DNA of 64,000 nucleotides, taken from the IMG/VR virus record IMGVR_UViG_3300045988_154277; one strand, written 5' to 3'. A program made the position numbers and the translations under genes. Shown here one piece after another: positions 9,198-44,294 of the stretch (positions within the stretch are counted from its first letter, which is position 1; each line of letters begins with the position of its first letter). Origin of the DNA: a virus. A model generated the notes under the pieces. It was not told the DNA's origin. It saw nothing but the letters and a program-made list of their open reading frames with translations, and searched no databases.

Positions 9198-9206
9198 ATA
9201 TTGAAT

Positions 9207-9395: not shown

Positions 9396-9419
9396 CAGTT
9401 GTCTCCTGTATTCAAAGAT

Positions 9420-9490: not shown

Positions 9491-9506
9491 ACGAAGTTGT
9501 ATAGGG

Positions 9507-9639: not shown

Positions 9640-9640
9640 A

Positions 9641-10139
9641 TGGTGGAGGTGGCGGGTTATTCTCCCGCGTCTTACCTTACTTCAGATCAGTTTCGTTCAC
9701 AAGCTTAGTTTCGCTTATATTAGTCACACAGTCGATGTACGAAACTTGAGGAATCTCAGAGTGCTACTCTGTATCATTCTAACTGTACTGTGTCAAGTCA
9801 CTTCATGTGGGCGCTACTCCACTTCATGGATGCTCCCAGTAGTGTACCATCCTGGGCTACATCGACAACCAATCTGTGCGCATATTCTAACGATTCACGA
9901 TTGGTGAACCTCATTAGAACCCGAACCAAAGAAACGAGAGCGAATCATCGAGTCTTTGAAATTGCACTACTAGTCTCGTTATCGGAGTCCGAGACGTTCG
10001 TGGCCATCACGCAGCAGCGAGAAGGGCTTCTTCAGTGTTGTTGACACTTATTGTTTTGATCAGCTTTTATACAGGCCAACTGATCAACCTGTGCTTGCAA
10101 CTTAATCTTCCACAAAGCAATCGAAATAAAATCACCCCC
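9641..10139 (-). ncRNA. ssrA: tmRNA (ssrA-like), about 499 nt
   Basis: 5' GGGGGTGATTTTATTTCGATTGC versus E. coli GGGGCUGAUUCUGGAUUCGACGG; 3' GACGCGGGAGAATAACCCGCCACCTCCACCA versus E. coli GACGCGGGUUCAACUCCCGCCAGCUCCACCA; tag frame ...NNTEEALLAAA then TGA, starting about 90-95 nt from the 5' end. Confidence 0.75.
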
Positions 10140-17039: not shown

Positions 17040-18600
17040 AAGATACTCTACTCTGGGAAGGATAACTTCCCAGAGTAGAGAGCCACAGAAAGGTATAAAT
17101 GAAAAGTCCTGGTTCCGTTTAGTAATGGAGTGACCGTATAGGCAGGCCCGAAAAGAGGCTATGTGATACGGTCAGTATCAGATCTCATTCACACGGTTTC
17201 CTTACGCTGAGCTGATACGTTTCTGGTGAACTACTCCTTACGGAGCTTCCTCGTATTACCGAGTACATCGACTTACGTCGATGGCCTGTTCCAGGCATTT
17301 ACGTGTGTTATTATCCCACCACATGTACGGATGGATATTGACTATAGATACAGGACCTTTGTACAATCCACTCGATTGTGCTCTTCCTAAGTGCAAGATG
17401 TTCAACGCAGCATTGATGTCTCGGTCTATCTCAAGACCACAATGTTCACATGTGAATGTTCTTACTTTTAGGGAGAGCTTCTCAGTGTGTTTTTCACCAC
17501 AGTACGCACAGGTCTGTGAAGTAAACATCGGATTCACAGGAACAAGATGATTTACCTTGTACTCTAGCATACTGATGAACTTACCAAGTTGTTGATTCCG
17601 TATCTCACGATTACGTCCAGTTGCTTTGGATTCAGACATCCTCTTAACCTTTAAGTCCTCTACGTACACTGTATCGTAACGACTGGACAGATCTTTAGAG
17701 ATCTTGTGAAGTTGGTCATTCGTTTTACGACTCTTCACTCTATACAGCTGTTTGATGACTTTAGTGAGATGTCTGTATCTATTTGATCTACGTTTGTGGT
17801 TGGTGTCCCTCCTTGCTTTTAGTTTATCTATTTGTTTATCATACCACTTCTGATGATTCGGTCCTCTGATCACTTGTTGATCAGATGTTGTTACCAAGTT
17901 AGCCGTTCCAAGATCGATACCCACATCAGTTGGCTGTCTAACTTTTACAGGGTTGTAATCTGTAGTGATGCTGACATACCAGTGATCTGAATAACAGATG
18001 GATATCATTTTAATAGCACCTTGGATAGGTCTATGTAGCACAATTGGTATTTCACCATATGCTTTGGTGATTAGCTTACGACCTCTAATCGAATATCCAT
18101 TTTGTGGATATGTGATGTTGAAGAAATTAGAACAACTTCTAAAACTAGGCGGATGGATCACTACCTTTTTGAAGAACGACTGGTATGAGTTATGTACTCT
18201 AATAGGTACTTGTTGTAACACTTGTGAGTGTATCTCGTACAACGTAGGATCCTGTCTCTTCAGTTCAACCAATTTAGAGTTGAGTCGATATTGGTTCAGA
18301 TACGATTTGTTGTTCGTATACTCAGTTTGTTCTGCTTGGATGAACTGGTTGTATATCCAGTTCAATCTGCAAGAGTGGTTCCATAGTTTCTTAACTTGCT
18401 GGTTAGAAGGTCGTATGCGAAACTTATAAGTTCGCATGTAATTACTCCAACCTTTGGTTGTTGATGTAGTTATGTAACGTATCTATGGATACGTTACATG
18501 CTGTTACTAGAAAATAAGACGGTTGATCTTAAGATACGTGATCCGTAGTCTACATCTCTCCAATATGTAGAATCTAGAGCATTAAGATCCTTGCTATAGC
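17040..18600 (-). mobile_element. IS200/IS605-family (IS1341-like, TnpB-only) insertion sequence
   Basis: tnpB ORF flanked by subterminal hairpins (left end 18474-18497 gtaacgtatc-tatg-gatacgttac; 18551-18575; right-end side 17046-17080) and about 200 nt of ORF-free structured sequence 3' of tnpB (candidate omega/reRNA). Confidence 0.6.
17256..18437 (-). CDS. tnpB: TnpB (OrfB) RuvC-like RNA-guided nuclease
   Basis: N-terminus MRTYKFRIRPSNQQ; RuvC-I VGIDLGTANLVTTSD; RuvC-II YVEDL; zinc finger CAYCG...CEHCG; RuvC-III DRDINAALNI. Confidence 0.85.
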   Translation of the reverse strand: MRTYKFRIRPSNQQVKKLWNHSCRLNWIYNQFIQAEQTEYTNNKSYLNQYRLNSKLVELKRQDPTLYEIHSQVLQQVPIRVHNSYQSFFKKVVIHPPSFRSCSNFFNITYPQNGYSIRGRKLITKAYGEIPIVLHRPIQGAIKMISICYSDHWYVSITTDYNPVKVRQPTDVGIDLGTANLVTTSDQQVIRGPNHQKWYDKQIDKLKARRDTNHKRRSNRYRHLTKVIKQLYRVKSRKTNDQLHKISKDLSSRYDTVYVEDLKVKRMSESKATGRNREIRNQQLGKFISMLEYKVNHLVPVNPMFTSQTCAYCGEKHTEKLSLKVRTFTCEHCGLEIDRDINAALNILHLGRAQSSGLYKGPVSIVNIHPYMWWDNNTRKCLEQAIDVSRCTR

Positions 18601-18604
18601 AGGC

Positions 18605-19138
18605 TTAATTTGCCTTAACTTTGTCAATGACACGATTCAACTGATCTTCACTCGCCACGATGAACACATTCATCTGGATCGGTGCGTAAATCACCTTACC
18701 TTCACGAACAGCTTCAGACAACCACATCTCTCTGATGGGATTAGAATCTGTTGGCATCTGTTTTGGTTGTGGAACAATTTCAGGAACGATCGGTTCCGGT
18801 TTTACTTCCACTTTAGGTTCCTCTGTAACAACAGGTGTGGTAGTGATCGTTGGCTGTACAACAGATGTTGTTGGTTTTGCAACAGACTTGGCTGTACGAA
18901 CAAGTGACGTCTTCACTGAGTGAGGGATTTCACGTCCTTCACGAATGCTCTGCTCGATGATACCGATCTGAGTCCGCATCATTTCATCTTTGTATTTTTT
19001 CGTGTCTTTCCCTCTGCAAATGTCATTGCAGTACTTCTTGTCTCTATCAGCGTACTCGAAGGTTGCATTGCACGTGGCACAACGCTTAGGGTGAGCGTAA
19101 TAGAGGGCTTTCTTCTGTTTGAGAGTGAGTTCCGACAT
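18605..19138 (-). CDS. hypothetical protein with C4 zinc finger and Pro/Val/Thr-rich linker
   Basis: 177-aa ORF; CATCN...CNDIC. Confidence 0.6.
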   Translation of the reverse strand: MSELTLKQKKALYYAHPKRCATCNATFEYADRDKKYCNDICRGKDTKKYKDEMMRTQIGIIEQSIREGREIPHSVKTSLVRTAKSVAKPTTSVVQPTITTTPVVTEEPKVEVKPEPIVPEIVPQPKQMPTDSNPIREMWLSEAVREGKVIYAPIQMNVFIVASEDQLNRVIDKVKAN

Positions 19139-21870: not shown

Positions 21871-22749
21871 TTATTTACTTGTGATTTGGAAAGGAACCCT
21901 TACTCCGATCTCATGTAACCGTTCTTTGGTCCACTGTGGAGTATGGATATTCCAATGTTCGTGGGTGGCTACTTCGATCAACTTCTTCTTGACACCTGGG
22001 GAGATCGAGGATTTAATATCCACACTATCTCCCAACACAGCGTGTGTGTAAATGTTGAAGGGAAGGACATCCGTACCGAACACCTTATGGTTCAAGTCCT
22101 CTGGTTTTAAAACATGACCAGTGAAACTTTGAACCAACCGATAGTGTGATGTTGACTTACAGATGTGATAATCCAAAGGATGACTGGTCACATGAGTGAT
22201 CCTGTGGTTGTTCTTGATGTATCCCAACTCGATATCCAGAAGCTTATGTGGGAACTCACCATTCAAGATCGGGATCTCGATCAGGGTGATGTTCCTCACT
22301 TTGGTTACCGAACGTTTGGGCGTCATCGACGAGATCAACAACTGTTCTGCTGTTGTCAACACACGTTTCCCAGGTGTTGGTACACGGTACGACGTCGACG
22401 GGATCGTCTTCTGATAATCACAGAAGTAAGCGATCAACGTCGGGTTTAAGATACTCTTGTTCGCATCGAACATCTCCACGATATCATTCAGTAACATGGA
22501 GATCTCCGCTTTGGTGCGATTCAACAACGACATGGAAGGACGATCGGTCTCCTTACCCAGTCGTTTTTCTGCTCGAACCATCTCCGAGATCTTCTCTGTC
22601 TGTGCACAGTTACGGATGATGGTTGCGACATTGAACATCACGATCTCCGCAGGACTGTCTCGCCTTATGATCTCATCGATCAACGAGTTGTACATGGGAG
22701 TCGTCCCATACGAGTATTTTGAATTCTCGAGATCAATTGGCTGTATCAT
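21871..22749 (-). CDS. hypothetical protein (292 aa)
   Basis: ORF overlapping the gp47-like gene start. Confidence 0.6.
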   Translation of the reverse strand: MIQPIDLENSKYSYGTTPMYNSLIDEIIRRDSPAEIVMFNVATIIRNCAQTEKISEMVRAEKRLGKETDRPSMSLLNRTKAEISMLLNDIVEMFDANKSILNPTLIAYFCDYQKTIPSTSYRVPTPGKRVLTTAEQLLISSMTPKRSVTKVRNITLIEIPILNGEFPHKLLDIELGYIKNNHRITHVTSHPLDYHICKSTSHYRLVQSFTGHVLKPEDLNHKVFGTDVLPFNIYTHAVLGDSVDIKSSISPGVKKKLIEVATHEHWNIHTPQWTKERLHEIGVRVPFQITSK

Positions 22750-23872
22750 CGAGGATCTCCTTGATTTCTTGTTCTGTCAACGGTGTATCCGTTCCTTTCA
22801 GACTCTCTGCTATCATAGAGGGTAAATTGTCCTCTGTGATCACAGGTAGTTCATCTAGTACTTGAACCAGTTCTTCCGTATTAACATCTTGAGTGACGGT
22901 TGACTTCTTGGTCACAACAACATTGTGGAAGTTGTCTTTCACATAGGCTGCGACGAAGTCACTGTTCCCTGCGATCCTTAAGAAGATCTTAAGATCAGGG
23001 TCTTTCCTTTGTTCACGGATCTTATCAACAACAGACCCGATCCTTATCAGTGCATCCTCAACATTGAACGTGGTGTCCAAGTCTACGGTTACGAACGGGA
23101 TCGCATCTTCGTTGATAACAAATGTATACTGTATCTTGTGAGTAGTTGGAGTATAGGTGAGGAGGAAGTATCCTTTATCCTCTTCTTCTCCGTGTTGTAG
23201 TCTCTCAAAACTTCCCCCATTGAACACTTTCTTGTACACATTGGGTATATGCACATGTCCATTCAAGATCGCACCTTGGATATAAGGTTCAATCCTGTTG
23301 TAGATCAGTGTGTTGTGTGGTAACTGAGTCAATCCCTTCGGTAGGAGATGTTCCCAGTACCCATGGGAGAATAAGAAGTCTACTTTCTTCAACTTGTGTG
23401 CTTCGATTACATCGATCACCGCTTGTGTGACATCCTGATAAGGTTGATCATCCGGACAATACACAACCGAGATTTTCAGATCTTCGAACAGTTCCAATTC
23501 GATGTTGTCGATCACTCGAACCAAGGGTTTGTTGTGTAACATCAGAGGGTTCCTGTAGTTCTTCGTCAGAAACAGCCTGTTCTGGTAACGGTCGTGAGAG
23601 AACGTACCTCTCACGACCCTGATGTAAAACTGATAACGCTCGGCGTATTGAATCAACTCATCTACGATCAATGCGGCATATATGCCATCGTCACTGTTCA
23701 AGTTGCACAGTCTGTCAAAGAAATCACCTACGATCGCTAGGATCTGTATCTCTTCTAATTTGGGATATACATACTTCACAAGATGTTCGTGTACCATGTG
23801 TGGTGGTACATTGGGTCGACCGATATGGAGATCAGTCAATTCCAATATCTTAACATCAGAGTGGTTCGACAT
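22733..23872 (-). CDS. Mre11/SbcD-like recombination nuclease (T4 gp47-like)
   Basis: phosphoesterase motifs LTDLHIG, GDFFDR, SHDRY, GH..H; N-terminal alignment to T4 gp47 MKILNLGDWHLG..GDIFD. Confidence 0.8.
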   Translation of the reverse strand: MSNHSDVKILELTDLHIGRPNVPPHMVHEHLVKYVYPKLEEIQILAIVGDFFDRLCNLNSDDGIYAALIVDELIQYAERYQFYIRVVRGTFSHDRYQNRLFLTKNYRNPLMLHNKPLVRVIDNIELELFEDLKISVVYCPDDQPYQDVTQAVIDVIEAHKLKKVDFLFSHGYWEHLLPKGLTQLPHNTLIYNRIEPYIQGAILNGHVHIPNVYKKVFNGGSFERLQHGEEEDKGYFLLTYTPTTHKIQYTFVINEDAIPFVTVDLDTTFNVEDALIRIGSVVDKIREQRKDPDLKIFLRIAGNSDFVAAYVKDNFHNVVVTKKSTVTQDVNTEELVQVLDELPVITEDNLPSMIAESLKGTDTPLTEQEIKEILDDTAN

Positions 23873-24894: not shown

Positions 24895-25013
24895 GATAAT
24901 AGTCTCCTTCTGTATCGGATGGTCAGTAGTTCACAGAATCTATATCGACTCCATCCTATGTCAAAAGATGTACAGTATACCAAGGATATTAACCCTTATA
25001 AAAGGATATCACC

Positions 25014-26060
25014 ATGAAGACTGATTTTCCATACAAGGCTCAACTGGAGAAGATCGGCGATCACTCCATCGAAGAACTGATGCACCTGCAGCTTGCACAG
25101 CAGATCGAATCGGATACCACTCAGCTGGATGAACTGGATGCTCATCTGGATGAAGTGACATATCTGTACGGACTGCGAGATGCGGTGCTCCTGAAAGGTG
25201 TCACACCTGCGATCTTCCAAGACTACCAGGAACACATGTGGTCGAAGTACGAGTTCGATCTGGAACCGTTCGTCAACGGCAGCAACGAACAACTGACCTA
25301 CTGCATGGAAGGACTGGGTTCGATCATCACCAGGATCCTGCTCAAGATCAAAGAGATCATCACAGCTGTGATGGAGTGGTTCTCTACAGAATCGATCTTC
25401 AAGACCTGGTTCAACAATATGTCGTTCTACAAACGTCAACTCAATATCCTCTACAGCGAGTATAATCCGAAACGTGACAGAGTAATAAGAGATGTCTATG
25501 GAAGACAGTTCATCTCTGGATACGACTACGGGACCTATACACGACTGTTGTCGGCGATGAGTGTGTTCATCACACACATCAAAAAGATCAATGTTCCTGC
25601 TGACATATCCAAATTTGGAGACACCGCATCTGTAGATGAGCTGAACGATAAGCTGTATCAGTGCGGTTATATACTTGACGAAACACACATCTATGCGACT
25701 GGAGCAATCACCTATCGTAGAGATACGATCCTGGCGATGGGATGGACCGTCAACTCTGTATTCAAGAAATACAACGATCTTCAGAATTACATCTTCAAAC
25801 ACGATCTTGATCTGGGTAAGCTGAAATACGCACTTACCCGTGCCACGATCCAGTGGTCACGGAATATCGATGATCTGCTGAAGAACAAAGTTCCGATGAC
25901 AGATGCTCAACTCCAGAATGCGCAGATGATGAAGATCAGCTGTGTACTCCTGAAACGACTGACACGATTGGTAATGCAGCAAAGCTCTGGCATGGCTGCA
26001 CAGTGGTGCCGGATGGTACGACTGATCGATGCAGCATTGCCTGCGAACACCAATTATTGA
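25014..26060 (+). CDS. hypothetical protein (348 aa), a rare plus-strand gene
   Basis: AAAGGA RBS; convergent terminator at 26074-26108; the antisense ORF 24996-25802 has junk composition. Confidence 0.65.
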   Translation: MKTDFPYKAQLEKIGDHSIEELMHLQLAQQIESDTTQLDELDAHLDEVTYLYGLRDAVLLKGVTPAIFQDYQEHMWSKYEFDLEPFVNGSNEQLTYCMEGLGSIITRILLKIKEIITAVMEWFSTESIFKTWFNNMSFYKRQLNILYSEYNPKRDRVIRDVYGRQFISGYDYGTYTRLLSAMSVFITHIKKINVPADISKFGDTASVDELNDKLYQCGYILDETHIYATGAITYRRDTILAMGWTVNSVFKKYNDLQNYIFKHDLDLGKLKYALTRATIQWSRNIDDLLKNKVPMTDAQLQNAQMMKISCVLLKRLTRLVMQQSSGMAAQWCRMVRLIDAALPANTNY

Positions 26061-26073
26061 ACAAAAGAAAAGG

Positions 26074-26108
26074 TTCCCTATACGGAGGATCAACCTCCGT
26101 ATAGGGAA
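26074..26108. terminator. bidirectional terminator between convergent genes
   Basis: ttccctatacggagg-atcaa-cctccgtatagggaa. Confidence 0.6.
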
Positions 26109-26115
26109 CACTTAT

Positions 26116-26778
26116 TTATCGACGTTTCTTACGACGTAACTGACCGATCTTGTTCGAAGGATCGGTGGGATCTCGCATCTCACCACCTTCACGCATCTGA
26201 TCTCTCAGATACTTCTCGACCCAATCACGGGTCGCTTCGATCGCATCAAGTTCATCGAAGGTAAGGTTCGGGTCCGTGGTCACCCACTCTTCCACCATGT
26301 AGTCGGGGATCTTCCCATCTGCATAGAAGTTCTTGTTGAGTGTCACTTTGCCGTTGTCGATCAGACGTCCGAAGACATCCTCTTGTGGAAGGTTCTCTTT
26401 GCAGAACCCATATCCGTAGATCCGATCTTGCTCGAACAGTTCCCGGATGGGTTGATACATCAATATCGGCAGCTGCATCGATACTGGTGTATTATACAGT
26501 TGCTCTTCGCTGGTGATCGCTTGGATCTGGAGAGGGTTCGATACAGCAAGAGAAGTCTGCTGGACCATCATGTTCGTATCAACCAGTTGCGTCTGAACCA
26601 ACGTCATCAGGTTGTTGAACCGATCTGCCAGGGGATCTCCTGCCTGTCCGAAGATCACTCCGTTCTGGTTCCCATACTGGTGGTTGAGATAACTCAGTAC
26701 ATCCGAAGTTGCACTGGTTCCCAACAGAGAACCCAAAGACGGGGTGATCAACGCTTCTGCTAGTGGTGCGATATACAT
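26116..26778 (-). CDS. hypothetical protein (220 aa) coupled to the ACP gene
   Basis: GAGGTGA RBS overlapping the ACP stop; basic C-terminus RRKKRR. Confidence 0.6.
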   Translation of the reverse strand: MYIAPLAEALITPSLGSLLGTSATSDVLSYLNHQYGNQNGVIFGQAGDPLADRFNNLMTLVQTQLVDTNMMVQQTSLAVSNPLQIQAITSEEQLYNTPVSMQLPILMYQPIRELFEQDRIYGYGFCKENLPQEDVFGRLIDNGKVTLNKNFYADGKIPDYMVEEWVTTDPNLTFDELDAIEATRDWVEKYLRDQMREGGEMRDPTDPSNKIGQLRRKKRR

Positions 26779-26786
26779 AAGTCACC

Positions 26787-27086
26787 TCACTTGGAGGCTT
26801 CTTCTGCATCACTTCCAGACGCGGACACCTCTTCTGATTCTGCGGGATTGAGAACACGATCCATCAGATCCACGACATCCTTCACGGTGACACACTTCTC
26901 AGCATCTTCATCCGTGATGTTGACATTGTACTCTTCTTCGAAGGACATCAGAACTTCGACTTTGTCGAGGCTGTCCATCGTCAGATCTTCCAAGGTCATA
27001 TCCTCGGTGATCGGATCATCTTGATCGTAAGCCACCTGTTCTGAGATGACTTCGATTACTTTCTGTTTGACTTCTTCACGAGTCAT
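26787..27086 (-). CDS. acyl carrier protein homolog with acidic C-terminal extension
   Basis: aligns along its length to E. coli AcpP: LEDLTMDSLDKVEVLMSFEEEY versus [22 protein letters not shown] (the DSL serine is the phosphopantetheine site); EDAEKCVTVKDVVDLM versus EEAEKITTVQAAIDYI. Confidence 0.75.
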   Translation of the reverse strand: MTREEVKQKVIEVISEQVAYDQDDPITEDMTLEDLTMDSLDKVEVLMSFEEEYNVNITDEDAEKCVTVKDVVDLMDRVLNPAESEEVSASGSDAEEASK

Positions 27087-27095
27087 TCCATTCTC

Positions 27096-27365
27096 CTATG
27101 CAGGTTGTTCAGCTTCGTCGAACTGTCTGGGATCGTTGATATAACAGTTCAAGGCGATCGCTGCTTCTTTCGTGATCATGACATCACTTGTGATCCCGAT
27201 GTCATCTCCCGCCAACAGTACATTAGCAGGGTGCATGTTCATTAATGCAGGTATCATTTGCAACTCTTTGATGGATACTCCATTCATCGCTACTACCCGT
27301 GCCTTATACACGGGGCTAGACTGTCCTTTCGTCATATGTACACGTGCACTTGTACAGTTAGACAT
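27096..27365 (-). CDS. hypothetical protein (about 89 aa from Met57; the ORF-track N-terminal extension to 27533 is doubtful)
   Basis: stop TAG sits inside the ACP RBS (tight coupling); TGGAGACGGTATG RBS for Met57; the upstream 200 nt is GC/purine-rich and looks like structured RNA. Confidence 0.4.
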   Translation of the reverse strand: MSNCTSARVHMTKGQSSPVYKARVVAMNGVSIKELQMIPALMNMHPANVLLAGDDIGITSDVMITKEAAIALNCYINDPRQFDEAEQPA

Positions 27366-28124
27366 ACCGTCTCCAGTCGTTGAAGCGGATCTATCAAGTT
27401 GAACTCCTTCAGTACCCGTTAAGTACCTCAACCGTGGTCTATCGGGCTCGCTAGACGCTACTCTAGCACCTTCTCTCTTCGTGGAGATGTGCGCTTCGCA
27501 CCCTACTACCTTACCCCTCACCCGGCAGGCCATTCACTTGATATATTTAGATCTGAGCTGCTGATAGCACCATTTTGCTGATCATACACATCGACTGTAA
27601 CCATCTATGTTCAACATATAGCAAATCAAGGTTGTTACACCAAAATTACAGTCGTATGCATCATCAACCATCGATAGAGAACCGGAGTGTGGTCAAGATA
27701 GAGCAACACGTATCGAATGTGCGCTACAACACCAGCCACGCGATGTATCTCCAGCTTTTATTTCATCTCATCGACATCCCAAGACGTTGTTTCTGTCTCA
27801 CGACACCTCAGTGAGGTCTCTTGGGCTTTAGGACGTCCCAGCTATTTACGGTAATTCACGCACACAGTTTCCTGTATACGGGCCAATGATCGGTTAGATC
27901 ATAAGCATCTCCATCATAGTCACTTACATTCCAAGTACTAGCGTGTGATTCAAGTACTCCGGTTCGCTTAAGGAACCTGCCCATACTCTTCGTATGGAAA
28001 TCGATTATATCTCAACCCTCAGCTTGATCTGTTAGGGCAACCTTCGTTTACGTCTACCATTACACACGTTGTAGACCTACGTGGTCTTTCACCACTAATC
28101 TGTGAACACATCCTGATAATAGTT

Positions 28125-28209
28125 TGGTAGGCGATAAGGGACTCGAACCCTTACGTCTTACGACACTGGATCCTAAATCCAGAGCGTCTACCAATTCCGC
28201 CAATCGCCC
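28125..28209 (-). tRNA. tRNA-Leu (anticodon UAG), class II, CCA encoded
   Basis: acceptor GGGCGAT/ATCGCCT; anticodon arm CTGGA-TTTAGGA-TCCAG; long variable arm; T-arm AAGGG-TTCGAGT-CCCTT; ACCA. Confidence 0.8.
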
Positions 28210-28212
28210 AAA

Positions 28213-28287
28213 TGGAGCCCCGTGCAGGAATTGAACCCGCCTCCCAACCTTACAAGGGTTGACTTGAGCCACTCAAGCTAACGGGGC
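28213..28287 (-). tRNA. tRNA-Thr (anticodon UGU), CCA encoded
   Basis: acceptor GCCCCGT/ACGGGGC; anticodon arm CAACC-CTTGTAA-GGTTG; T-arm GCGGG-TTCAATT-CCTGC; TCCA. Confidence 0.7.
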
Positions 28288-28982
28288 ATTATCAAGACTT
28301 CGTTACTGGTTACACATTATGACCATCCCTTAGCACGTATATTTGTACGCTTTTATTTCAGCATAGGACATCTCGATGTTTCTTTCTATCTTTCGATCAC
28401 ATTCACGCCCGCCTTTTGAGCCACGTTGTAGTACATCGAGCTTTAGTTGCTTCCAGTTATTAGAAGGTTTACGCACCACATCCTTTCAGATATAGTGTTC
28501 TGTGCTAACCCCTTGATAATCAAGATGTTAGACAAAATTTGGGGCCGCGGATATTTCGGGAGATACTCCTATCGTCACATCTCCATACTCGCGTTTGAAC
28601 TTTGTTGCAAATAATGTAAATATGGCACCTAGTCGAAGGGACGGATTCCTGCCAACACCTATGTTCGTTACAAGACGCTACTCTTATAACCGCGCCATTA
28701 CGCGCAGTACTACTTTCGTAGTTCTTAGGTCAGACTAGATCTCAAACTTGACTATCGTCAAGCCCACTACCGTTTCCATCACCATATCGCTTGTGATGTA
28801 CTCCCGGAGATTAACCCGGGATAGTCGTTGCACCGTATCTCTCCGTTAAGGAGAGGCTTGGCCAGGGTTAGCATATACCTCACGATACTTAGCGTTCCCT
28901 GTTTTCAGTAGTGTCTGCTACGGGGTATCACTATCCCGTAGTCCTTGTAGTTTGACAGCTTACTTTGTCAATAAGTTGTCAA

Positions 28983-30134
28983 TTACGTTAAGAGACAGGT
29001 CAATCCCCTTACATAGTCCATGCCATATTTTCTGCACTCTTCTTTGCACTCTTCGATCAGAACATGCAACAGGTTGTAGATGTCCTCATCGAACTTTGCC
29101 AATGCAGCGTTGTGTTTCGCTACCGCTTGCGGTATCGTCAATCCCATCCGTTTGGTCATCAGATTGATCAATTCCAATTTCCAACAGACCACACCGATCA
29201 GGTATGGAAGATGGAGTTCATCCGCTTCATGTGGTTCGGTGATCGGTACGATCACACCTCGGAACGAACAATGGAGTCGTGCACCCATAACCAACTTACG
29301 GATATAACCGATCTTACTGATCAGTTTCACCTTGGAGATCAGAGTGCTGTATTCCACGATCGACCGTTGGATCTCCCACATCCGTTGATCCACGAACTTG
29401 GGACCAACTGTTCCATAGTTGAATACGTAGATCAGAGCGGACAACTCTGCTTTCGCATCCAAGATCGCTTCCACGGTATCATCACTGTATTGCATGGTAC
29501 CGGAGGTTGTGATCAGATGGAGAGCTTGGTTCAACACCGGAATATGTCGAATGAAGATCCTGTTGCGATAGCGCTGGATATATTCGGCGATCCCTTCTGA
29601 CCTAGCTCTTGCGGATGGTTGTTTTAACGGCGCATAATCGTTGAGGAAGAACCTTACGATGTCGTCGAAGTTATTGTAGAAATACTCAAACCCCTGACCG
29701 AGCAGTCCTTTCAACGGTTGCGGTAACTCAACATCGACATTGAGTAAGGACTCCAATATCGATACGGATTTGCACTTACCGAGCCACTTATCCAACACTC
29801 GATAGACTGCAGGATGGATGACACTTGGTGCAAAAGGAGGCAACTCCAACCAAGCACGGAACTTCACCTTATCGGCGAAGTAAGTACGAACAGGTGTATG
29901 ACACCTGCTACACACAGTGCCTTCATAGAAGTTACCTTCGAGATGTCCACACTCACAAGATGCGACGAAGTTCAGTTCCTTGACACCGTCCTGGAATAGG
30001 TTCTGGATCTGTTCTCTCATCTGACTCTTGGATGTGAACTGCTGATCACAAGGGATGACTTTCGCATCCGGATCCTCCCAGAACATCTTCTCGTAGTCTG
30101 TCGGGATCAACCGTACAAGTTTCCGTGTTGCCAC
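28983..30134 (-). CDS. multisubunit RNA polymerase beta' subunit, N-terminal fragment (split gene)
   Basis: zinc finger CECGH..C.RCHTPV like E. coli beta' [42 protein letters not shown] like [32 protein letters not shown] like [31 protein letters not shown]..ELHLP like GKRVDYSGRSVITVGP..RLHQCGLP; ends before NADFDGD; GTG start with AAGGAG RBS. Confidence 0.75.
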   Translation of the reverse strand: [383 protein letters not shown]

Positions 30135-30231
30135 CTTGTACTCCTTGTTATTGGGTTCCTGTGAAAAATAGAAGAGGATAGCCTGGATCTATCCTCCCCT
30201 ATAAGGTTACTGCTGTTTACTCTGATCGAGA

Positions 30232-31815
30232 TCAGAGGCAGTAGATGCTCTGCTGATTGGCGTACGGATACTGACCAACCATGACACGGTTCATCTGGGA
30301 GAACCCAGTGAAGTCGTTCGCCTGAGAAGTCATCAGAGGCGCAACGCTGTAGGTCGAGCTGGACGGAGTATCGTAGTTGAGCTTGACGCCCGCCTGATTC
30401 AGGATGGTCGCGATCGCGATCGCGAGTTTGCTGTCGAGGACCACGGTCGTGGTGGTGTAGAGATTCTCAACACCATCGGAGAAGATCCCCTTGACTTCGT
30501 TGATGTGTCCTTCCGGAAGGTTGGACTGACGCAGCAGAGGACGGATCTTGCTGAGGGCGTTCTGCATCTTCGGAGCCAGACGGAGGTAGTCCACCCAACG
30601 GGTGTCCTTGCCGATGCCGTTCTCCTGGTACACACCGGTGAAGTTCCGGCACATCCAGACAGCGACGTCACGTCCGAGGATCTCCGGACCGAACCCACCG
30701 TAGATGCCGTTGCCGAGGAACATCTGCAGAGACGCCACGAACTCAGCACGCTTGTCCTGATAGATCATGGCATCGATGCCGACCGGACGCGCACGTCCTT
30801 CGGTGATGTCGACCGCGAGGAACGGTTTGATCAGCGACTCGTTCACGAAGCGATGGAACTCGTCCACGCTGGTGATGTTGTAGGGCTGCTGAGTCTTCGG
30901 ATCCGTGTACAGGTTGCCGAGGTTCGGCTGATCCTTCTGAGCGAAGGAGGCGTACGGACGGCTCCACAGGGACTGCATGATGAACGCATCGGTCGCCACG
31001 GAGAGCGCCAGGGCCATCAGGTTCTGGTTCGGGATCTTGCAGATCACGTCGGTGATCACGGCAACCGGGATGAACTTACCCGCACCGGTATCTTCAGGAG
31101 AGAGGATACGGGTGTAGCCGGTGATCGCCATGAACGGCTGCTGATCGATTTCTGGCTGACCGAACCGGTTCGTGGTGCCGGTGGGCACGTCGATGCAGAG
31201 CAGGATGCCGATATCGTTCCGAGCCGGAACCGCATGCGGGCTGTTCTTGGAGGTCCAGTCATCGACCGCTTCTTTGCGGGTGATCACGGAGAACCGTTCG
31301 TTGCGGAGGGACTCGACGTTCAGGACGCTGCCACGAACGCAGGAGTTGATCGAGTTCATGATGAACGCGGCCATGTTGTCCGCCTTGGCATAGTCTTCTT
31401 TGCGAACCACGATGGACTGCAGAAGCTTCGCATCGCCGCGCATGTTCTTCAGCATGTTCGCGAAGTCACGGGACTGTTCGGAGATGCTGTTGCTGTCGAC
31501 AGCGCCATAGGTTTCAGCGAAGATCAGGTTGATCGCGAACTTCGACTGTTCGTCGATGAACGCACGCCCTTCCGCACGGGTCGTCGCGATCGGATAGGAA
31601 CTGATCGTGGACTTGAAGTCGACCAATTTCTTGTCGATCTTCTGGATGTAGAACTGACCTTCTTCGGACAGTCCGGTTGCCGATGCGGTTCCTTTCAGGA
31701 ACTCGCTCAGGCGGATGGCGTTCGGGATGGTGGTCTTCGGAGCGGCGTTGTCCATCGGCGAAGATCCGTTCATGTTGGTGTTGTTGGCTGTGGAGCCAGC
31801 GGTTTTCTGTGCCAT
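30232..31815 (-). CDS. abundantly expressed early protein with anomalously high GC; putative chimallin (phage-nucleus shell) or major virion protein
   Basis: AAGGAGGAATTACTATG RBS; promoter motif upstream; about 58% GC against 42% background; adjacent to the beta'-N gene, as chimallin is said to be in phiKZ (recollection, not checked); no sequence-level confirmation. Confidence 0.45.
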   Translation of the reverse strand: MAQKTAGSTANNTNMNGSSPMDNAAPKTTIPNAIRLSEFLKGTASATGLSEEGQFYIQKIDKKLVDFKSTISSYPIATTRAEGRAFIDEQSKFAINLIFAETYGAVDSNSISEQSRDFANMLKNMRGDAKLLQSIVVRKEDYAKADNMAAFIMNSINSCVRGSVLNVESLRNERFSVITRKEAVDDWTSKNSPHAVPARNDIGILLCIDVPTGTTNRFGQPEIDQQPFMAITGYTRILSPEDTGAGKFIPVAVITDVICKIPNQNLMALALSVATDAFIMQSLWSRPYASFAQKDQPNLGNLYTDPKTQQPYNITSVDEFHRFVNESLIKPFLAVDITEGRARPVGIDAMIYQDKRAEFVASLQMFLGNGIYGGFGPEILGRDVAVWMCRNFTGVYQENGIGKDTRWVDYLRLAPKMQNALSKIRPLLRQSNLPEGHINEVKGIFSDGVENLYTTTTVVLDSKLAIAIATILNQAGVKLNYDTPSSSTYSVAPLMTSQANDFTGFSQMNRVMVGQYPYANQQSIYCL

Positions 31816-39900: not shown

Positions 39901-40662
39901 TCACCTCCTTGTTCGATGTTGACTGATATGTGTGTTGATGATCGTCTGGTGAAGGAGTAACATGCTACCCAGCATCTTGTTAGCTTGCGACTTCACCTTC
40001 GGATCTTGTTCGATCTTCTTGGTGACGACAGCCAGATAGATACTGGCTACATACCGCACACTGTCCAAGGCGTACTCCAGATACTTCTTACCTACATATC
40101 GTTCATCTTTCGCCGTTGTTGAGATGATCAACTGTAGTTTACGAAGTAGATCCAACGGATCATACAACATGATAGACATACGAGCGTAACGATCGCTGCT
40201 TAATGCAAATGATTGGATCACACTGATCAACGTTGAACTCCGGTTGGGATGAAGTGGATACCACTTCGTCTCCATCAACGCGAACAGTGGCATCATCAAC
40301 ATCAAGTTGATCCCACACTCGTGCTTCTCAATACGTAATATATACGTGAGAATCTGATAGACTAACGGGGGAGCTGGCATCTCCCCCAAGATCAGAGCGT
40401 CCACCAGTTGCCTGGTGGAACGTTCTTCCAAGAACCGCATACGAACACATCCGATCCGGAACAACTGTCCTGCCATGAACAGCTCCTCAGGAGAGGCACC
40501 ACCTCCCTTGTTGTAAGGATCTCGAACGATACAAGATACTTTCGCAAGGTACTTGAAGAATGGTTCTAACTCTACGAGAGGAGGATCATCCTTATTTGTA
40601 GTATCGATCAACCAGGCTTGGAACCTGGCGATCTCAGATGTGTCGAGATCACATCGTTTCAC
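39901..40662 (-). CDS. hypothetical protein (253 aa)
   Basis: ORF; start overlaps the stop of the topoisomerase ORF. Confidence 0.55.
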   Translation of the reverse strand: MKRCDLDTSEIARFQAWLIDTTNKDDPPLVELEPFFKYLAKVSCIVRDPYNKGGGASPEELFMAGQLFRIGCVRMRFLEERSTRQLVDALILGEMPAPPLVYQILTYILRIEKHECGINLMLMMPLFALMETKWYPLHPNRSSTLISVIQSFALSSDRYARMSIMLYDPLDLLRKLQLIISTTAKDERYVGKKYLEYALDSVRYVASIYLAVVTKKIEQDPKVKSQANKMLGSMLLLHQTIINTHISQHRTRR

Positions 40663-43600
40663 AGGACCTCCTGTTCTGGTATTTGGTTCAAGATACTCTT
40701 CACATCACCAAGAACCAACGCTTTACGAGGTGCGGTATCCACGCCCATCATGTCGTAGATACGATTCACATCCCCGATACTCGTGATCGTGGTGAATGTG
40801 CGTGTTGCAGGATCCAAACAGGTGTACTTCAACTGAGGACCACTGCATTCACCGAGACCTTTCAGACGGTGAACAGGATAGTGTTCGTCGAGTTTCTGGA
40901 GGATCCGATAGAGCTGCATGAACGTCATGGGTGCTCGTTCCATCTCCGTTGTTGTTTTGGTTGTCACCAGGAGATCGAACAACTCCCAATGAACCATCTC
41001 CAACTCAGGAAGGATGTAAGAACGGATCTCTTGAACCAAGTTCTGCATCGGAACACTGATCTCGATCCCTGCTACCGACAACAAGAGTGTCTTCGCTCCA
41101 GGATGATACGAACAATCATCCAGTTTCAGGATGTTCTTCACCATCTTGGTATCCAACTTGTACAAACTCAGATAGTCCACACAGTGAACCAACTGTTCCA
41201 GTACCATCGGATCGATCACCAACTTGTTCGCAGAACGGGTGATGATCCCACCGATCCTCTTGGTCAGGTAGATGAAATCCCGATACTGTTCTCCTTTCAG
41301 TTGACACAGATTCTTGGTCATCTGAGAGTAGAGTTCCAGATTGAAGAACTTCTCATAGATCTTGACACGGGCATCGTTCAGGGCTTTCTGGTCTCTCAAG
41401 AAGAGAGCTTTATCCCGACTTTCCATCACGTAGAGCGGAGGATTCGCCATGAACACACGTCCGCTTGCCAGGATCAAAGGATTGATCTTCAACAATGCAG
41501 TGATCACAAGGTCGTTGATGTGATAACCGTCAGGGTCAGCATCTGCCAGGATCCCGATCCTTGCGAACCGCAATCTGCTCAGATCTTGATCTCTCGGTCC
41601 AACCCCCAGGATCTTCACAAGATCTTGGTAGACTTTGTTCGCTCTAAGATCCTCCACATTAGCAGTGTGTGCATTGATCGGTTTGCCTTTCAACTTGAGT
41701 ACTGCTTGGAAGTGTTTGAACCTCTCCTGAACCACGAAGTCTCCTGCGCTGTTACCCTCAGTGATGAACAGTTCCGTGATGGTCGGATCCGTCACACGTG
41801 CAGGCACATAACAACCTTCATTGTTCATGTCGTAAGCAAGGTTCTTCGAGTTGGAACTCAAGTTCATACTCTTATTGCTGAACTGAGCGAACTTCTTCAC
41901 AAGATCATCGTGGATGATGTTGAACATCTGTTCCCACACCCCATCCTGGATCGTATCGAAGTATGCATTCAGCATCTGACCGTAGATCTTCTCGAAATCG
42001 AGATCCTTGAATCCATGCTTCGTCTGACCTTCGTATGTTGCTCCTTTGTAAAACGCTCTGATATATCCGTAGAACGGAATATTGTAGAAGCGTTCGAAGA
42101 ATGTCATGATCTCATCATCGTCCTGATCGAGATATGGAGTCAATCGTTCTCTGATCTTCTCAAAGAAGACACTGAGATGTGAAGACTCTTTATCTTTGAT
42201 CTGTGTATCATTCACAGTGGCGATATAACCATTCTGACGATCACAGTTCTTGACCAGATGAACACTGATGTCACAGGCAAGCAACTTTGGGGATGTCACC
42301 TCTTGTTTCACCTCGAGATTCCAGAGAGGTTGCTCTGTGATATTGAATTTACCACGAACGTAATCTTCAGCTGAGATCATCATAGGTGTTTCGTAGATCA
42401 ATGTACCATGCTGTTTCTGGAAGTAATTCCACATGTCTTCATATGGTTTCTTGAACCAACTGTCAGGAAGAAGTTTATCTACCTGATAGATGTGGAACTT
42501 GGTATTGGTCTTGAATGCTCCGATGTAATCCACCAACTCGAATAGACGTTGTACTCCTTCCGTTGGGAAGAATGTATGAGTGTATCTCAAGATCGTGTCA
42601 TCTGGTTGATGTACTACGATAGTACCAACGGTCTCGCGAATACTATCAATTGGCTTCATCACTTCAGACTTCACCACGTTTCCTCGGTTGAGAGTCAACC
42701 CAGCGAAACCATCCAGTCTCTTTGTGATGGCCACAAACCGTTCTGAGATGGCGTTACTTGAAACAGCACCGACACCGAACTGTCCGATACTGTATTTATA
42801 AGCAGCACTATCTGCTTTGCCAGTTGAAAACGGTATCGTGAAAACATTCCGTAACTTCTCACAAGGGATACCTCTGCCGTGATCCAGTACAGCAATCTGG
42901 TAGGTAGTATCTCCCTTGAACAATATCACGTTGATGTGATAGATCCGATTTGGGTCGATGCTCTCGTCAACCGAGTTATCGATATACTCTTTTACGCACT
43001 GTATGTTAGCGTTTAGATTCGTCTTACCCATGAGCATACCCGCATTTCTACGGGTATGCTCCATGAAGGTGAATTCTCTAATGTCACTCGATGTGTAACT
43101 GTCCGTCATTTGTGATTCCTCCATAGTCGTACATGATAGCGATTGTACGTCGTTTTTAACTCGGTCAATATCTGGTAAATTCTCTATACCAAACATAACC
43201 ATAAGCTCATCTGTGGTGTACTTGTGTGTTGCGATTTTTGCACGTAGATCTTGTAGTTCTTCCTTGGTAAGAGGAGTTCTATTGTTTCTATCTGCAGCAT
43301 CATGTGCAGCTTTTAATGTCTTTGCACTCTCTCCCTTTCGGTACGGTACTTCATCTGTAGTGATGCATCGATAAATCATAGCTTCCGATTTATGCATCTT
43401 AGCGCTTAGTGTATTATACGTCCATCCGAGTTTATACATATCTCTTATGTAATAAACCTCGTCTTTGGAAAGAACATCACGTATTTTAACAGTCTTCCTA
43501 GTGCCCCGGACGTTCCTTACAGGATCACCCGGATCTAACGGATAAGTGATCCCATCCAATGCATTCGAAATGGTGTGTCGATCTACATTAAAGTACTCTG

Positions 43601-44264: not shown

Positions 44265-44294
44265 AATAACAACTCCAGTTAATAGTGTTTTCTT

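What the first reader, a model, noticed from the sequence alone, without database searches (positions are those of the whole stretch)
26116..27365. Tightly coupled three-gene cassette centred on an acyl carrier protein homolog
Gene 26787-27086 is an unmistakable ACP: the DSL phosphopantetheine-site serine is present and the helix II/III alignment to E. coli AcpP holds along its length. It carries an extra acidic C-terminal tail. Its RBS contains the stop codon of the upstream small ORF, and its own stop lies inside the RBS of the downstream 220-aa basic-tailed protein. Neither neighbour resembles a known Fab/PKS enzyme. Phage-borne ACPs are uncommon; it could serve a novel acyl-transfer or lipid-modification pathway, or act as a decoy for host ACP partners.
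Basis: partly seen in the sequence, partly recalled or inferred. Interest (0 to 1): 0.6.

Follow-up and report, generated by a model that had tools for sequence, protein, structure and literature searches.

The report
ACP-like gene beside jumbo-phage import factor
A real acyl carrier protein homolog sits in an uncultivated phiKZ-like jumbo phage, wedged between the last exon of a phage RNA polymerase gene and a homolog of Imp3 (a factor phiKZ needs to import proteins into its 'phage nucleus'). Related phages keep the gene but have lost its lipid-carrying serine, so it more likely acts as a protein partner than in a new lipid pathway.

Summary
The ACP call is right. ORF 27086..26787 (minus strand) matches Pfam PP-binding (5.9e-10), PHROG 'acyl carrier protein' (1e-20) and solved ACPs (down to 6e-14). 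It has the DSL serine, an acidic tail, and stop/RBS overlaps on both sides.

The 'three-gene cassette with unknown neighbours' reading is wrong. [quoted passage not shown] The ACP-like gene occupies this slot in seven lineages sampled from one uncultivated clade. It is absent next to Imp3 in one nested lineage, in three more distant lineages and in all six isolated phages checked. The serine is kept in the window's clade (all 30 cluster representatives) and in one other lineage. It is Glu, Asp or Leu in four lineages, probably through at least two losses, while acidic helix-II residues stay invariant.

No phosphopantetheinyl transferase, fatty-acid or polyketide enzyme family was found in 57 window ORFs.

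Best reading (confidence 0.4): a clade-specific, co-translated protein-binding accessory of Imp3 or nvRNAP import. A host-ACP decoy or a true carrier using host enzymes remain possible.

The parts
26787..27086 (-). ACP homolog, 99 aa. The DSL serine is at residue 39 and residues 80-99 form an acidic tail.
   Evidence: Pfam PP-binding 5.9e-10. phrog_5934 at 1e-20. Solved ACPs down to 5.8e-14. 30 close homologs all keep DSLD.
26116..26778 (-). Imp3 (phiKZ gp59 / PhiPA3 gp055 / RAY gp229) family protein, 220 aa, with a clade-specific basic C-terminal tail.
   Evidence: hhalign of its family against isolated-phage Imp3 proteins: 96.4%, E 1e-9, 181 columns. phrog_3254 at 0.008 directly, and 1.5e-8 and 5e-9 for relatives. 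phrog_3254 is the family of PhiPA3 gp055 and KTN4_081 at about 1e-71. Synteny. orf59 = imp3 comes from bioRxiv 10.1101/2024.03.27.586873.
27096..27284 (-). Terminal exon (exon 4) of the nvRNAP beta-prime N-terminal subunit gene (phiKZ gp55/gp56.1 equivalent).
   Evidence: The same sequence is fused in frame after NADFDGD in the intact RNAP genes of L003, L017 and L019. tblastn 2e-12 and 7e-15. Junction sequences. The phiKZ gp55+gp56.1 spliced fusion is published.
27285..27900 (-). Intervening sequence 3. Boundaries are inferred from protein homology: the 5' exon ends in T and the intron ends in G. Its type is unconfirmed.
   Evidence: No Rfam hit at E<=10.
27901..27921 (-). 21-nt micro-exon 3 encoding DYDGDAY, the catalytic Asp triad of beta-prime.
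   Evidence: L010 encodes a contiguous APNFDYDG.
27922..28533 (-). Putative group I intron 2. It carries tRNA-Thr(TGT) at 28213-28287 and tRNA-Leu(TAG) at 28125-28209 in the insertion at the P6 loop.
   Evidence: Rfam Intron_gpI 20.7 bits, E 0.012, full model, with a 167-nt insert at P6. tRNAs. Boundaries.
28534..28659 (-). Exon 2 of the nvRNAP beta-prime gene (GVGRNPSLRL...AAPNF). The 5' boundary is approximate.
   Evidence: tblastn 1e-6 and 6e-12. Translations.
28660..29000 (-). Group I intron 1. The Rfam match spans 28707-28982. Splice sites are approximate.
   Evidence: Rfam Intron_gpI 49.7 bits against a gathering score of 50, E 4.4e-11, full model.
29001..30134 (-). Exon 1 of the nvRNAP beta-prime gene. 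The 3' end is approximate.
   Evidence: phrog_2987 'RNA polymerase beta subunit' 1.1e-58. tblastn to the L003 RNAP 1.3e-148.
26073..26109 (.). 16-bp-stem bidirectional terminator-like hairpin. It closes the RNAP-ACP-Imp3 transcription unit and the convergent gene 25014-26060.

Best explanation
The window comes from an uncultivated phiKZ-like jumbo phage. It has split multisubunit RNA polymerases and shares the gene order gp55, gp59, gp65, gp66 with phiKZ.

In one clade of these phages, a type-II-FAS-like ACP gene was inserted between the nvRNAP beta-prime gene and imp3. In isolated relatives such as PhiPA3 those two genes are direct neighbours.

Shown here:
- ACP homology.
- Imp3-family homology of the downstream gene.
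- The RNAP exon identity of the upstream ORF.
- No scanned terminator-like hairpin between the genes, and stop/RBS overlaps on both sides.
- Retention of the ACP-like gene in this slot in seven lineages.
- Invariant acidic helix-II residues, but repeated replacement of the phosphopantetheine serine.

Inferred from this:
- The selected role of the protein is binding to a protein, not carrying an acyl group for a phage-encoded pathway.
- It is most likely a clade-specific accessory made in step with Imp3. It could stabilise or chaperone Imp3, or act as an adaptor in Imp1/Imp3-dependent import, possibly of the nvRNAP encoded just upstream.
- This would parallel the small clade-restricted import adaptors Imp2, Imp4, Imp5 and Imp7 of phiKZ.
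- In the window's own lineage the serine and the surrounding acidic helix-II residues are intact. From general ACP knowledge, the host AcpS may therefore still modify it, and the prosthetic group could contribute to binding.
For: - ACP identity.
- Imp3 identity. Role of Imp3.
- The imp3 neighbours were needed for even partial complementation in phiKZ, and tagged Imp3 expressed poorly on its own.
- The ACP-like gene lies directly upstream of imp3 with 2-15 nt gaps in the window, L010, L005, L003, L017, L019 and L020.
- In the scan of 25900-30400, no terminator-like hairpin lies between the RNAP exon, the ACP gene and imp3. One follows imp3.
- In the 17-sequence alignment the invariant columns are M1, D38, E44, M47, E50 and D70, with L40, D41 and E51 nearly invariant. 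Position 39 is S, E, E, D or L.
- The Asp-for-Ser lineage has five distinct cluster representatives, all with ADDLD, found on contigs up to 272 kb.
- An HMM built only from Ser-bearing members recovers the Ser-less ones at 1e-8, 4e-8 and 9e-6. A profile built only from Ser-less members retrieves ordinary PF00550 ACPs from 5.8 billion sequences.
- The Ser-less lineages form one clade in only 7 of 200 NJ bootstraps of the Imp3 alignment.
- dN/dS between the window and L010 is 0.165 for the ACP, 0.17 for Imp3 and 0.13 for the RNAP exon.
- A basic C-terminal tail on Imp3 occurs in the ACP-bearing clade and is absent from L011, L013, KTN4, PhiPA3 and RAY, which lack the ACP.
- No phosphopantetheinyl transferase, fatty-acid or polyketide Pfam family in 57 window ORFs.
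Against: - No physical or predicted ACP-Imp3 contact was obtained. The tools fold single chains only.
- Adjacency and coupling do not prove interaction.
- One nested lineage (L018, P0021/P0022) has imp3 directly after the RNAP exon with no ACP, although its Imp3 keeps the basic tail. The ACP is therefore dispensable at that position, or has moved elsewhere in that genome.
- The window's own clade keeps DSLD in all 30 representatives, which fits a functional holo-ACP.
- Conserved helix II is also what a decoy of host ACP partners would need.
- Only 64 kb of a genome of roughly 200-280 kb was scanned for acyl enzymes.
- Neither the nuclear shell protein nor Imp1/PicA was confirmed in the window.
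- L003's ACP ancestry is weak on its own (E 0.16; model pLDDT 61).
Confidence: 0.4

Rival explanations
1. Host-ACP mimic or decoy. The phage makes a very acidic ACP look-alike whose conserved helix II binds host ACP-dependent enzymes or other ACP partners. This titrates or redirects them. The prosthetic group is not needed. The position next to imp3 reflects only shared timing of expression.
For: Helix-II acidic residues are invariant while the Ser is replaceable. Strong similarity to bacterial FAS-II ACPs. No phage acyl enzymes in the window. A published computational screen predicted contact between a phage ACP and host FabZ (bioRxiv 10.64898/2026.03.01.708874).
Against: This does not explain the fixed slot between the RNAP gene and imp3 with 2-15 nt gaps in seven lineages, or the association with the basic Imp3 tail. 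The Ser-less members L003 and L019 have diverged so far that Pfam no longer detects them, which is odd for a mimic of a conserved host protein. The host is unknown.
Confidence: 0.2
2. Genuine acyl carrier (auxiliary metabolic gene). In the window's lineage the protein is phosphopantetheinylated by the host AcpS and loaded by host Fab enzymes. It boosts or redirects fatty-acid or lipid supply during infection, for example for the membrane of the early infection vesicle. The Ser-less relatives would have changed function.
For: DSLD is kept in all 30 close cluster representatives and in the L005 lineage at 42% identity. Full-length alignment to solved ACPs, including the acidic helix-II residues. 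ACPs annotated as metabolic genes are found in many phages. Chimalliviruses build a lipid-bounded early vesicle (PMC12908238).
Against: No partner enzyme nearby or anywhere in the 64-kb window. The orthologous slot is kept under selection after at least two probable Ser losses. The gene is absent from all six isolated nucleus-forming phages checked, and those also make the vesicle. Translational coupling to an import factor is unexplained.
Confidence: 0.2
3. Accessory of the non-virion RNA polymerase itself. This would be an acidic subunit or assembly factor translated immediately after beta-prime, rather than a partner of Imp3.
For: The RNAP stop codon lies inside the ACP ribosome-binding site. 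The RNAP-to-ACP gap is 9-27 nt in all seven lineages. In phiKZ, nvRNAP import depends on subunit assembly and on small extra factors.
Against: The characterised phiKZ nvRNAP has five subunits and none is ACP-like. No ACP-like gene lies near the RNAP gene in the isolated phages. The ACP-to-imp3 gap is tighter (2-15 nt) than the RNAP-to-ACP gap.
Confidence: 0.1

Closest known systems
Bacterial type II fatty-acid-synthase acyl carrier protein (AcpP; Pfam PF00550)
   Same: Length of the core, the DSL(D) motif at the start of helix II, acidic helix II and acidic overall charge. Aligns end to end with solved ACPs (E 6e-14 to 2e-11).
   Different: It has a 20-residue acidic C-terminal tail. It is encoded in a phage RNA polymerase/imp3 operon with no fab, acpS or pls genes in the window. 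Orthologs in sister lineages carry Glu, Asp or Leu in place of the serine.
Phage 'acyl carrier protein' families (phrog_5934, phrog_4154; e.g. Serratia phage phiMAM1/2050H1, Vibrio phage ICP1, Prochlorococcus phage P-HM2)
   Same: Best PHROG match (1e-20). 34-51% identity to these proteins by tblastn. Function is unproven in all of them.
   Different: In the two examples inspected (2050H1 and BCSR5), the ACP lies among small hypothetical genes, not next to an RNAP or Imp3 gene. There is no DNA-level relative of the window region among 50,697 phage records.
phiKZ imp3 (orf59) locus of nucleus-forming phages
   Same: The downstream gene is a family member. Same order: nvRNAP beta-prime (intron-split, as for gp55/gp56.1), then imp3, then the SbcD-like gp65 and the gp66 family. 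In phiKZ, imp3 also needed its neighbours orf60 and orf61 for partial complementation.
   Different: phiKZ, PhiPA3, RAY, AgentSmith, RTH11 and C-ZP2022 have no ACP-like gene at the locus, and their Imp3 lacks the basic tail. Sequence identity to these proteins is low, 14% over the columns aligned in the profile-profile comparison.
ACP-fold proteins used as structural subunits (mitochondrial ACP/NDUFAB1 bound to LYR-motif proteins; mitoribosomal mL50). This is an analogy from general knowledge, not tested here.
   Same: These are carrier-protein folds that serve as a bound subunit of a non-lipid machine. The window ACP also gives weak Pfam hits to Ribosomal_L50 (0.0044) and matches NDUFAB1 chains in the PDB.
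   Different: No LYR-type partner was identified. The Imp3 model is a different, mostly helical fold with no PDB match. Binding was not shown.

Membership tests
Acyl carrier protein (PF00550 PP-binding) | Sequence match above the curated family threshold | tested here: met
   39.7 bits against a cutoff of 20.8, E 5.9e-10. 105 PDB carrier proteins at E<=1e-3.
Acyl carrier protein (PF00550 PP-binding) | Conserved serine of the D-S-L motif at the N-terminus of helix II (phosphopantetheine attachment site) | tested here: met
   Ser39 sits in LTMDSLD and aligns with the DSLD of solved ACPs. It is kept in all 30 close homologs. It is not kept in the orthologs of L017 (E), L003 (E), the L020 lineage (D) or L019 (L).
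Acyl carrier protein (PF00550 PP-binding) | Four-helix carrier-protein fold | tested here: inconclusive
   The window protein itself was not modelled. The most divergent ortholog (P0082) gave a four-helix model at pLDDT 61. Its top 17 Foldseek PDB hits were all carrier proteins, but with E around 1.
Acyl carrier protein (PF00550 PP-binding) | Actual 4'-phosphopantetheinylation and acyl loading | not testable with these tools
   Needs mass spectrometry of the protein, with or without AcpS or Sfp.
Acyl carrier protein (PF00550 PP-binding) | Cognate enzymes (phosphopantetheinyl transferase, synthase or acyltransferase) encoded with it | tested here: not met
   The neighbours have no such Pfam hits. 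None of the 25 Pfam families listed (of 27 matched) by 57 window ORFs is of this kind. Only 64 kb of the genome was available.
Imp3 (phiKZ gp59; phrog_3254) | Homology to phiKZ gp59 / PhiPA3 gp055 | tested here: met
   hhalign 96.4%, E 1e-9, 181 of about 205 columns. phrog_3254 hits at 0.008, 1.5e-8 and 5e-9. phrog_3254 matches KTN4_081 and PhiPA3 gp055 at about 1e-71. Foldseek against BFVD gives eight ~150-210-aa viral proteins at probability 0.97 or higher, best E 7e-7.
Imp3 (phiKZ gp59; phrog_3254) | Conserved genomic position downstream of nvRNAP beta-prime and upstream of the SbcD-like gp65 and gp66 genes | tested here: met
   Window order: RNAP (phrog_2987), ACP, Imp3 homolog..., phrog_100 SbcD-like (22733-23872), phrog_3229 gp66 family (21871-22749). 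Same order in PhiPA3, RAY and KTN4.
Imp3 (phiKZ gp59; phrog_3254) | Required for Imp1/PicA-dependent protein import into a phage nucleus | not testable with these tools
   This is a genetic and imaging criterion.
Nucleus-forming jumbo phages (Chimalliviridae) | Nuclear shell protein (chimallin, phrog_4795) and Imp1/PicA (phrog_3141) encoded in the genome | tested here: inconclusive
   The 527-aa gene at the chimallin position (30232-31815) gives hhalign probability 25%, E 8e-4 over 332 collinear columns. It gives nothing by BLASTP, PHROGs, Pfam or PDB. Pairwise phmmer with PhiPA3 PicA finds nothing in the window.
Group I intron (RF00028), for the sequences that split the RNAP gene | Match to the covariance model, and position exactly between homology-defined exons | tested here: met
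   Intron 1: 49.7 bits, E 4.4e-11. Intron 2: 20.7 bits, E 0.012, so only suggestive. Intron 3: no hit. Exon mapping.

The most novel reading that the evidence does not exclude
An ACP-fold protein has been recruited as a stoichiometric subunit or adaptor of the jumbo-phage nuclear import machinery. It would bind Imp3, perhaps through its acidic helix II and tail against the clade-specific basic tail of Imp3. In Ser-bearing lineages a host-installed acyl-phosphopantetheine could add to that binding, so that import competence could sense the host's acyl-ACP state. This would resemble the way mitochondrial ACP licenses LYR-protein complexes.
Probability: 0.25. Interest if true: 0.7.

Novelty: new variant of a known kind. 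Interest (0 to 1): 0.45.

Why it matters
Imp3 is described as an essential co-factor of nuclear import in phiKZ, but it has resisted study. Tagged Imp3 expresses poorly, and complementation needed its gene neighbours. A natural clade in which Imp3 is co-translated with a small, soluble protein of well-understood fold offers a testable candidate partner. It may also offer a way to produce Imp3 for biochemistry.

Phage ACPs are widespread and usually filed as metabolic genes without evidence. Here the repeated loss of the carrier serine at a fixed genomic slot gives a concrete case where that label is probably wrong for at least part of a family.

If the ACP is instead only a host-interfacing moron, the finding is ordinary.

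Tried and rejected
- DNA search of 25000-28000 against 50,697 phage records found nothing. tblastn of the 220-aa protein against the same records also found nothing. The link to isolated phages needed intermediates and a profile-profile comparison.
- The AF2 model of the 220-aa protein (pLDDT 71.7, N-terminal 50 residues below 50) has no PDB fold match. Sequence profiles of both Imp3 alignments find no solved structure.
- I looked for an ACP-like gene near imp3 in RAY, PhiPA3, KTN4, AgentSmith, RTH11, C-ZP2022, L008, L011-L014 and L018 with a family HMM, and found none. The small neighbours of imp3 in those phages are not ACP-like by sequence or charge.
- I tried to confirm chimallin and PicA in the window by BLASTP, phmmer, PHROGs, Pfam, PDB and hhalign. 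The results are inconclusive.
- I considered that the 89-aa ORF might start at ATG 27365, which has a GGAG upstream, or at ATG 27287. I rejected both. Homologs are fused to the RNAP, and the G of ATG 27287-27285 fits the last base of an intron.
- Rfam gives no family for intervening sequence 3.
- An ACP-Imp3 complex could not be modelled because the structure tool takes one chain and only database or window sequences.
- The HMM hits to Ser-less members were circular, since those sequences were in the model. They were replaced by the non-circular tests.
Full report
**What is at the coordinates**

All three ORFs lie on the minus strand.

The middle ORF, 27086..26787 (99 aa), is a solid acyl carrier protein homolog:
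- Pfam PP-binding scores 39.7 bits against a cutoff of 20.8, E 5.9e-10.
- phrog_5934 'acyl carrier protein' scores 9.9e-21.
- phmmer against all PDB chains returns 105 carrier proteins. Aquifex ACP (2ehs) is best at 5.8e-14, and E. coli AcpP scores about 2e-11 over residues 6-75.
- The serine of LTMDSLD aligns with the attachment serine.
- The protein has a 20-residue acidic tail, pI 4.05 and net charge about -22.

The upstream stop TAG lies inside AGGAG, 9 nt before the ACP start. The ACP stop TGA lies inside GAGGTG, 8 nt before the next ATG. A 16-bp-stem bidirectional terminator-like hairpin at 26073-26109 follows the 220-aa ORF. In the scan of 25900-30400, no terminator-like hairpin lies between the three ORFs.

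**The downstream 220-aa protein is an Imp3 homolog**

It has no Pfam hit and no tblastn hit in 50,697 phage records. It does have 31 metagenomic homologs, many on contigs of about 275 kb. The link to isolated phages runs as follows:
- More distant members hit phrog_3254: L011 at 1.5e-8 and P0031 at 5.3e-9. The window protein itself hits it at 0.008 over nearly its full length.
- P0031 finds RAY-type Erwinia jumbo phages by tblastn.
- RAY gp229 finds 194 jumbo-phage records, including PhiPA3 gene 055, 201phi2-1 and phiKZ-type phages.
- The PhiPA3 record annotates gene 055 as similar to phiKZ gp059.
- PhiPA3 gp055 and KTN4_081 (KTN4 belongs to the species phiKZ) both match phrog_3254 at about 1e-71.
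- A profile-profile comparison of the window family (22 sequences) with six isolated-phage proteins gives 96.4% probability, E 1e-9, over 181 collinear columns. The motifs correspond: MQLPILMY with IMQRWVMA, RI.GYGF with IDGYSDSY, GRLINNG with YRRVMDG, and DPTDPSN with DPTSP.N.
- The AF2 model (pLDDT 71.7) has no PDB match. Its significant BFVD hits are viral proteins of about 200-210 aa.

phiKZ orf59 is imp3. It is required for proper function of the import factor Imp1/PicA and for nuclear import of several cargos. It is conserved among nucleus-forming phages. Tagged Imp3 expressed poorly, and even partial complementation required its neighbours orf60 and orf61 (bioRxiv 10.1101/2024.03.27.586873; see also PMC12908238).

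Synteny agrees. In the window the order is RNAP beta-prime (phrog_2987), ACP, Imp3 homolog, an SbcD-like nuclease (phrog_100, 22733-23872) and a gp66-family gene (phrog_3229, 21871-22749). PhiPA3, RAY and KTN4 have the same order.

**The upstream 'small ORF' is an RNA polymerase exon**

In relatives L017 and L019 the same peptide (...IKEMD.V..L...HP....LGG..PGISGD..ITK.AAINLNCWLND...) continues in frame from the RNAP catalytic motif NADFDGD. The intact 485-aa RNAP subunit of L003 maps onto the window in four pieces:

| Piece | Window coordinates | Content |
|---|---|---|
| Exon 1 | 30098..29004 | E 1e-148 |
| Exon 2 | 28656..28537 | ends in AAPNF |
| Exon 3 | 27921..27901 | DYDGDAY, 21 nt |
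| Exon 4 | 27272..27132 | E 2e-12 |

For the three intervening sequences:
- Rfam places a full-length group I intron at 28982..28707, between pieces 1 and 2. It scores 49.7 bits, just under the gathering score of 50, with E 4.4e-11.
- Rfam places a weak full-length group I match at 28501..27980, between pieces 2 and 3 (20.7 bits, E 0.012). Its 167-nt insertion at the P6 loop is exactly the tRNA-Thr/tRNA-Leu pair.
- The third intervening sequence (27900..27285) has no Rfam match.

Junction sequences are compatible with group I rules for introns 2 and 3. Exon 2 ends in TTT and exon 3 in TAT. The bases before exons 3 and 4 are G. The spliced reading AAPNF-DYDGDAY-NGVSIKE keeps the spacing seen in intact homologs. 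L010 encodes APNFDYDG contiguously.

phiKZ nvRNAP beta-prime is itself a spliced fusion of gp55 and gp56.1 (bioRxiv 10.64898/2026.09.21.753271). The cassette is really the 3' end of the nvRNAP beta-prime gene, then the ACP, then imp3.

**Distribution of the ACP-like gene**

A small gene sits directly upstream of imp3, with gaps of 2-15 nt, in seven lineages: the window, L010, L005/6/7, L003/4, L017, L019 and L020.

A family HMM finds no ACP-like ORF at the locus in L018, L008, L011-L014, RAY, PhiPA3, KTN4, AgentSmith, RTH11 or C-ZP2022. It finds only one in the whole window. In L018 the RNAP exon abuts imp3 directly. The gene is therefore an insertion specific to one uncultivated clade, with at least one later loss or relocation.

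The closest homologs come from contigs of about 260-282 kb. One Imp3 cluster member carries the NCBI name 'MAG TPA: hypothetical protein [Bacteriophage sp.]'. L009 (IMG/VR UViG_3300045988_142450, 197.7 kb) is 100% identical over the 220-aa protein.

**The serine**

- All 30 cluster representatives at 53-99% identity keep T(M/C)DSLD.
- The L005 lineage keeps GADSLD.
- L017 has GADEID and L003 has FDELD.
- The L020 lineage has GADDLD in five distinct representatives found on contigs up to 272 kb.
- L019 has DLLS.

These proteins are ACP-derived by non-circular tests:
- An HMM built only from Ser-bearing members finds L017 (1e-8), L020 (4e-8) and L019 (9e-6), aligned in register. L003 is only marginal at 0.16.
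- A profile built only from the four Ser-less proteins retrieves ordinary PF00550 ACPs from 5.8 billion sequences.
- Pfam gives L017 and L020 scores just below threshold.
- The AF2 model of the L003 protein has four helices. Its top 17 Foldseek PDB hits are all carrier proteins, but the model is weak (pLDDT 61) and the E-values are about 1.

Across all 17 aligned sequences the invariant columns are M1, D38, E44, M47, E50 and D70. L40, D41 and E51 are nearly invariant. These fall mostly in and around helix II, whereas position 39 varies.

On an NJ tree of Imp3, the Ser-less lineages form one clade in only 7 of 200 bootstraps. The Asp lineage groups with the window clade in 126 of 200. At least two independent losses are therefore likely, assuming the ACP gene has tracked imp3.

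dN/dS between the window and L010 is 0.165 for the ACP, 0.17 for Imp3 and 0.13 for the RNAP exon. Synonymous sites are saturated.

**Other context**

- No phosphopantetheinyl transferase, ketosynthase, acyltransferase or other fatty-acid or polyketide family is among the 25 Pfam families listed (of 27 matched) for 57 window ORFs.
- Imp3 proteins of the ACP-bearing clade end in a K/R-rich tail. Those of L011, L013, KTN4, PhiPA3 and RAY do not. L018 has the tail but no adjacent ACP.
- Acidic C-terminal tails recur on the ACP-like proteins of the window clade, the L020 lineage and L019. They are absent in L005, L017 and L003.

**Interpretation**

Shown:
- The identities of the three elements.
- One scanned terminator-like hairpin, after imp3, and none between the three ORFs.
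- Stop/RBS overlap at both junctions.
- Restriction of the ACP-like gene to one clade.
- Purifying selection on it.
- An invariant helix II with a replaceable serine.

Inferred: the conserved role of this protein is protein binding rather than acyl transfer. Given where it is encoded, the most likely partner is Imp3, or the Imp1/Imp3-dependent import of the nvRNAP encoded upstream. Small clade-restricted import adaptors (Imp2, Imp4, Imp5, Imp7) are an established theme in phiKZ. I put this at 0.4.

A host-ACP decoy (0.2) fits the conservation pattern equally well but not the fixed slot. A true carrier that uses host enzymes (0.2) fits the strict DSLD conservation in the window's own clade, but not the retention of Ser-less orthologs or the absence of partner enzymes. 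An nvRNAP accessory (0.1) fits the upstream coupling only.

**Caveats**

- No interaction was modelled or measured.
- Only 64 kb of the genome was seen.
- The nuclear shell protein is not confirmed. The 527-aa gene at the syntenic position gives hhalign probability 25%, E 8e-4, with supporting gene order as in RAY gp221-gp223.
- Imp1/PicA was not found by pairwise search.

**Novelty**

Phage ACPs are known and not rare: 134 phage records match, and there are two PHROG families and reports such as PMC13573597. Imp3 is known. What appears new is the ACP-fold gene embedded in the nvRNAP-imp3 operon of one jumbo-phage clade, with recurrent loss of the carrier serine. A full-text search for 'acyl carrier protein', 'jumbo phage' and 'nucleus' found no paper describing it. 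I rate it a new variant of a known kind, with moderate interest (0.45).

Noticed in passing
window 27285-29000 (minus strand): The nvRNAP beta-prime gene is broken by three intervening sequences clustered around the catalytic NADFDGD motif. This leaves a 21-nt micro-exon (27901-27921, DYDGDAY). Intron 1 is a near-threshold Rfam group I intron. Intron 3 has no Rfam match. In relative L005 an HNH_3 endonuclease ORF lies upstream of the last exon.
   Followed up: partly
window 28125-28287 (minus strand): tRNA-Leu(TAG) and tRNA-Thr(TGT) lie inside the putative group I intron 2 of the RNAP gene, as a 167-nt insertion at the P6 loop of the Rfam alignment (20.7 bits, E 0.012). tRNA genes carried inside a group I intron would be unusual. 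Splicing and tRNA processing would have to be coordinated.
   Followed up: partly
window 9118-10139 (minus strand): A phage-borne tmRNA (RF00023, 71 bits, 9641-10139) lies next to two tRNA-Pro(TGG) genes. A 133-nt Rfam tRNA match (9507-9639, 45.9 bits) that ARAGORN did not call may be a tRNA with an insertion.
   Followed up: no
window 17256-18437 (minus strand): A 393-aa ORF matches transposase phrog_506 at 4e-81. The window-wide Pfam scan also found OrfB_IS605 and Cas12f1-like TNB domains, presumably in this ORF (the scan does not say which ORF matched). This looks like an IS605/TnpB-type element inside the phage genome. An HNH-like ORF lies next to it at 18605-19138.
   Followed up: no
window 40659-44321 (minus strand): A 1220-aa ORF combines an N-terminal HNH endonuclease region (residues 17-321) with a topoisomerase II large subunit (396-1015). 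It may be a read-through of an intron- or intein-associated homing endonuclease. A NUMOD4/HTH endonuclease ORF lies next to it at 44373-45398.
   Followed up: no
window 30232-31815 (minus strand): A 527-aa gene lies at the position held by the nuclear shell protein chimallin in PhiPA3 and RAY, preceded by an opposite-strand gene of about 390 aa, as in RAY. hhalign against chimallins gives only 25% probability (E 8e-4, 332 collinear columns). There are no PHROG, Pfam or PDB hits. It could be a very divergent shell protein.
   Followed up: partly
window 25014-26060 (plus strand): This 348-aa gene converges on imp3 and shares the terminator hairpin. The gene in the same position in L019 (330 aa, convergent just downstream of imp3) carries Pfam PF12699 (phiKZ-like internal head protein), which suggests a virion protein gene inserted on the opposite strand.
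   Followed up: no
L018 (logan SRR34069005_166769) 455-1303: In this related lineage the RNAP terminal exon abuts imp3 with no ACP gene, yet its Imp3 keeps the K-rich tail. It is not known whether an ACP-like gene exists elsewhere in that genome.
   Followed up: partly
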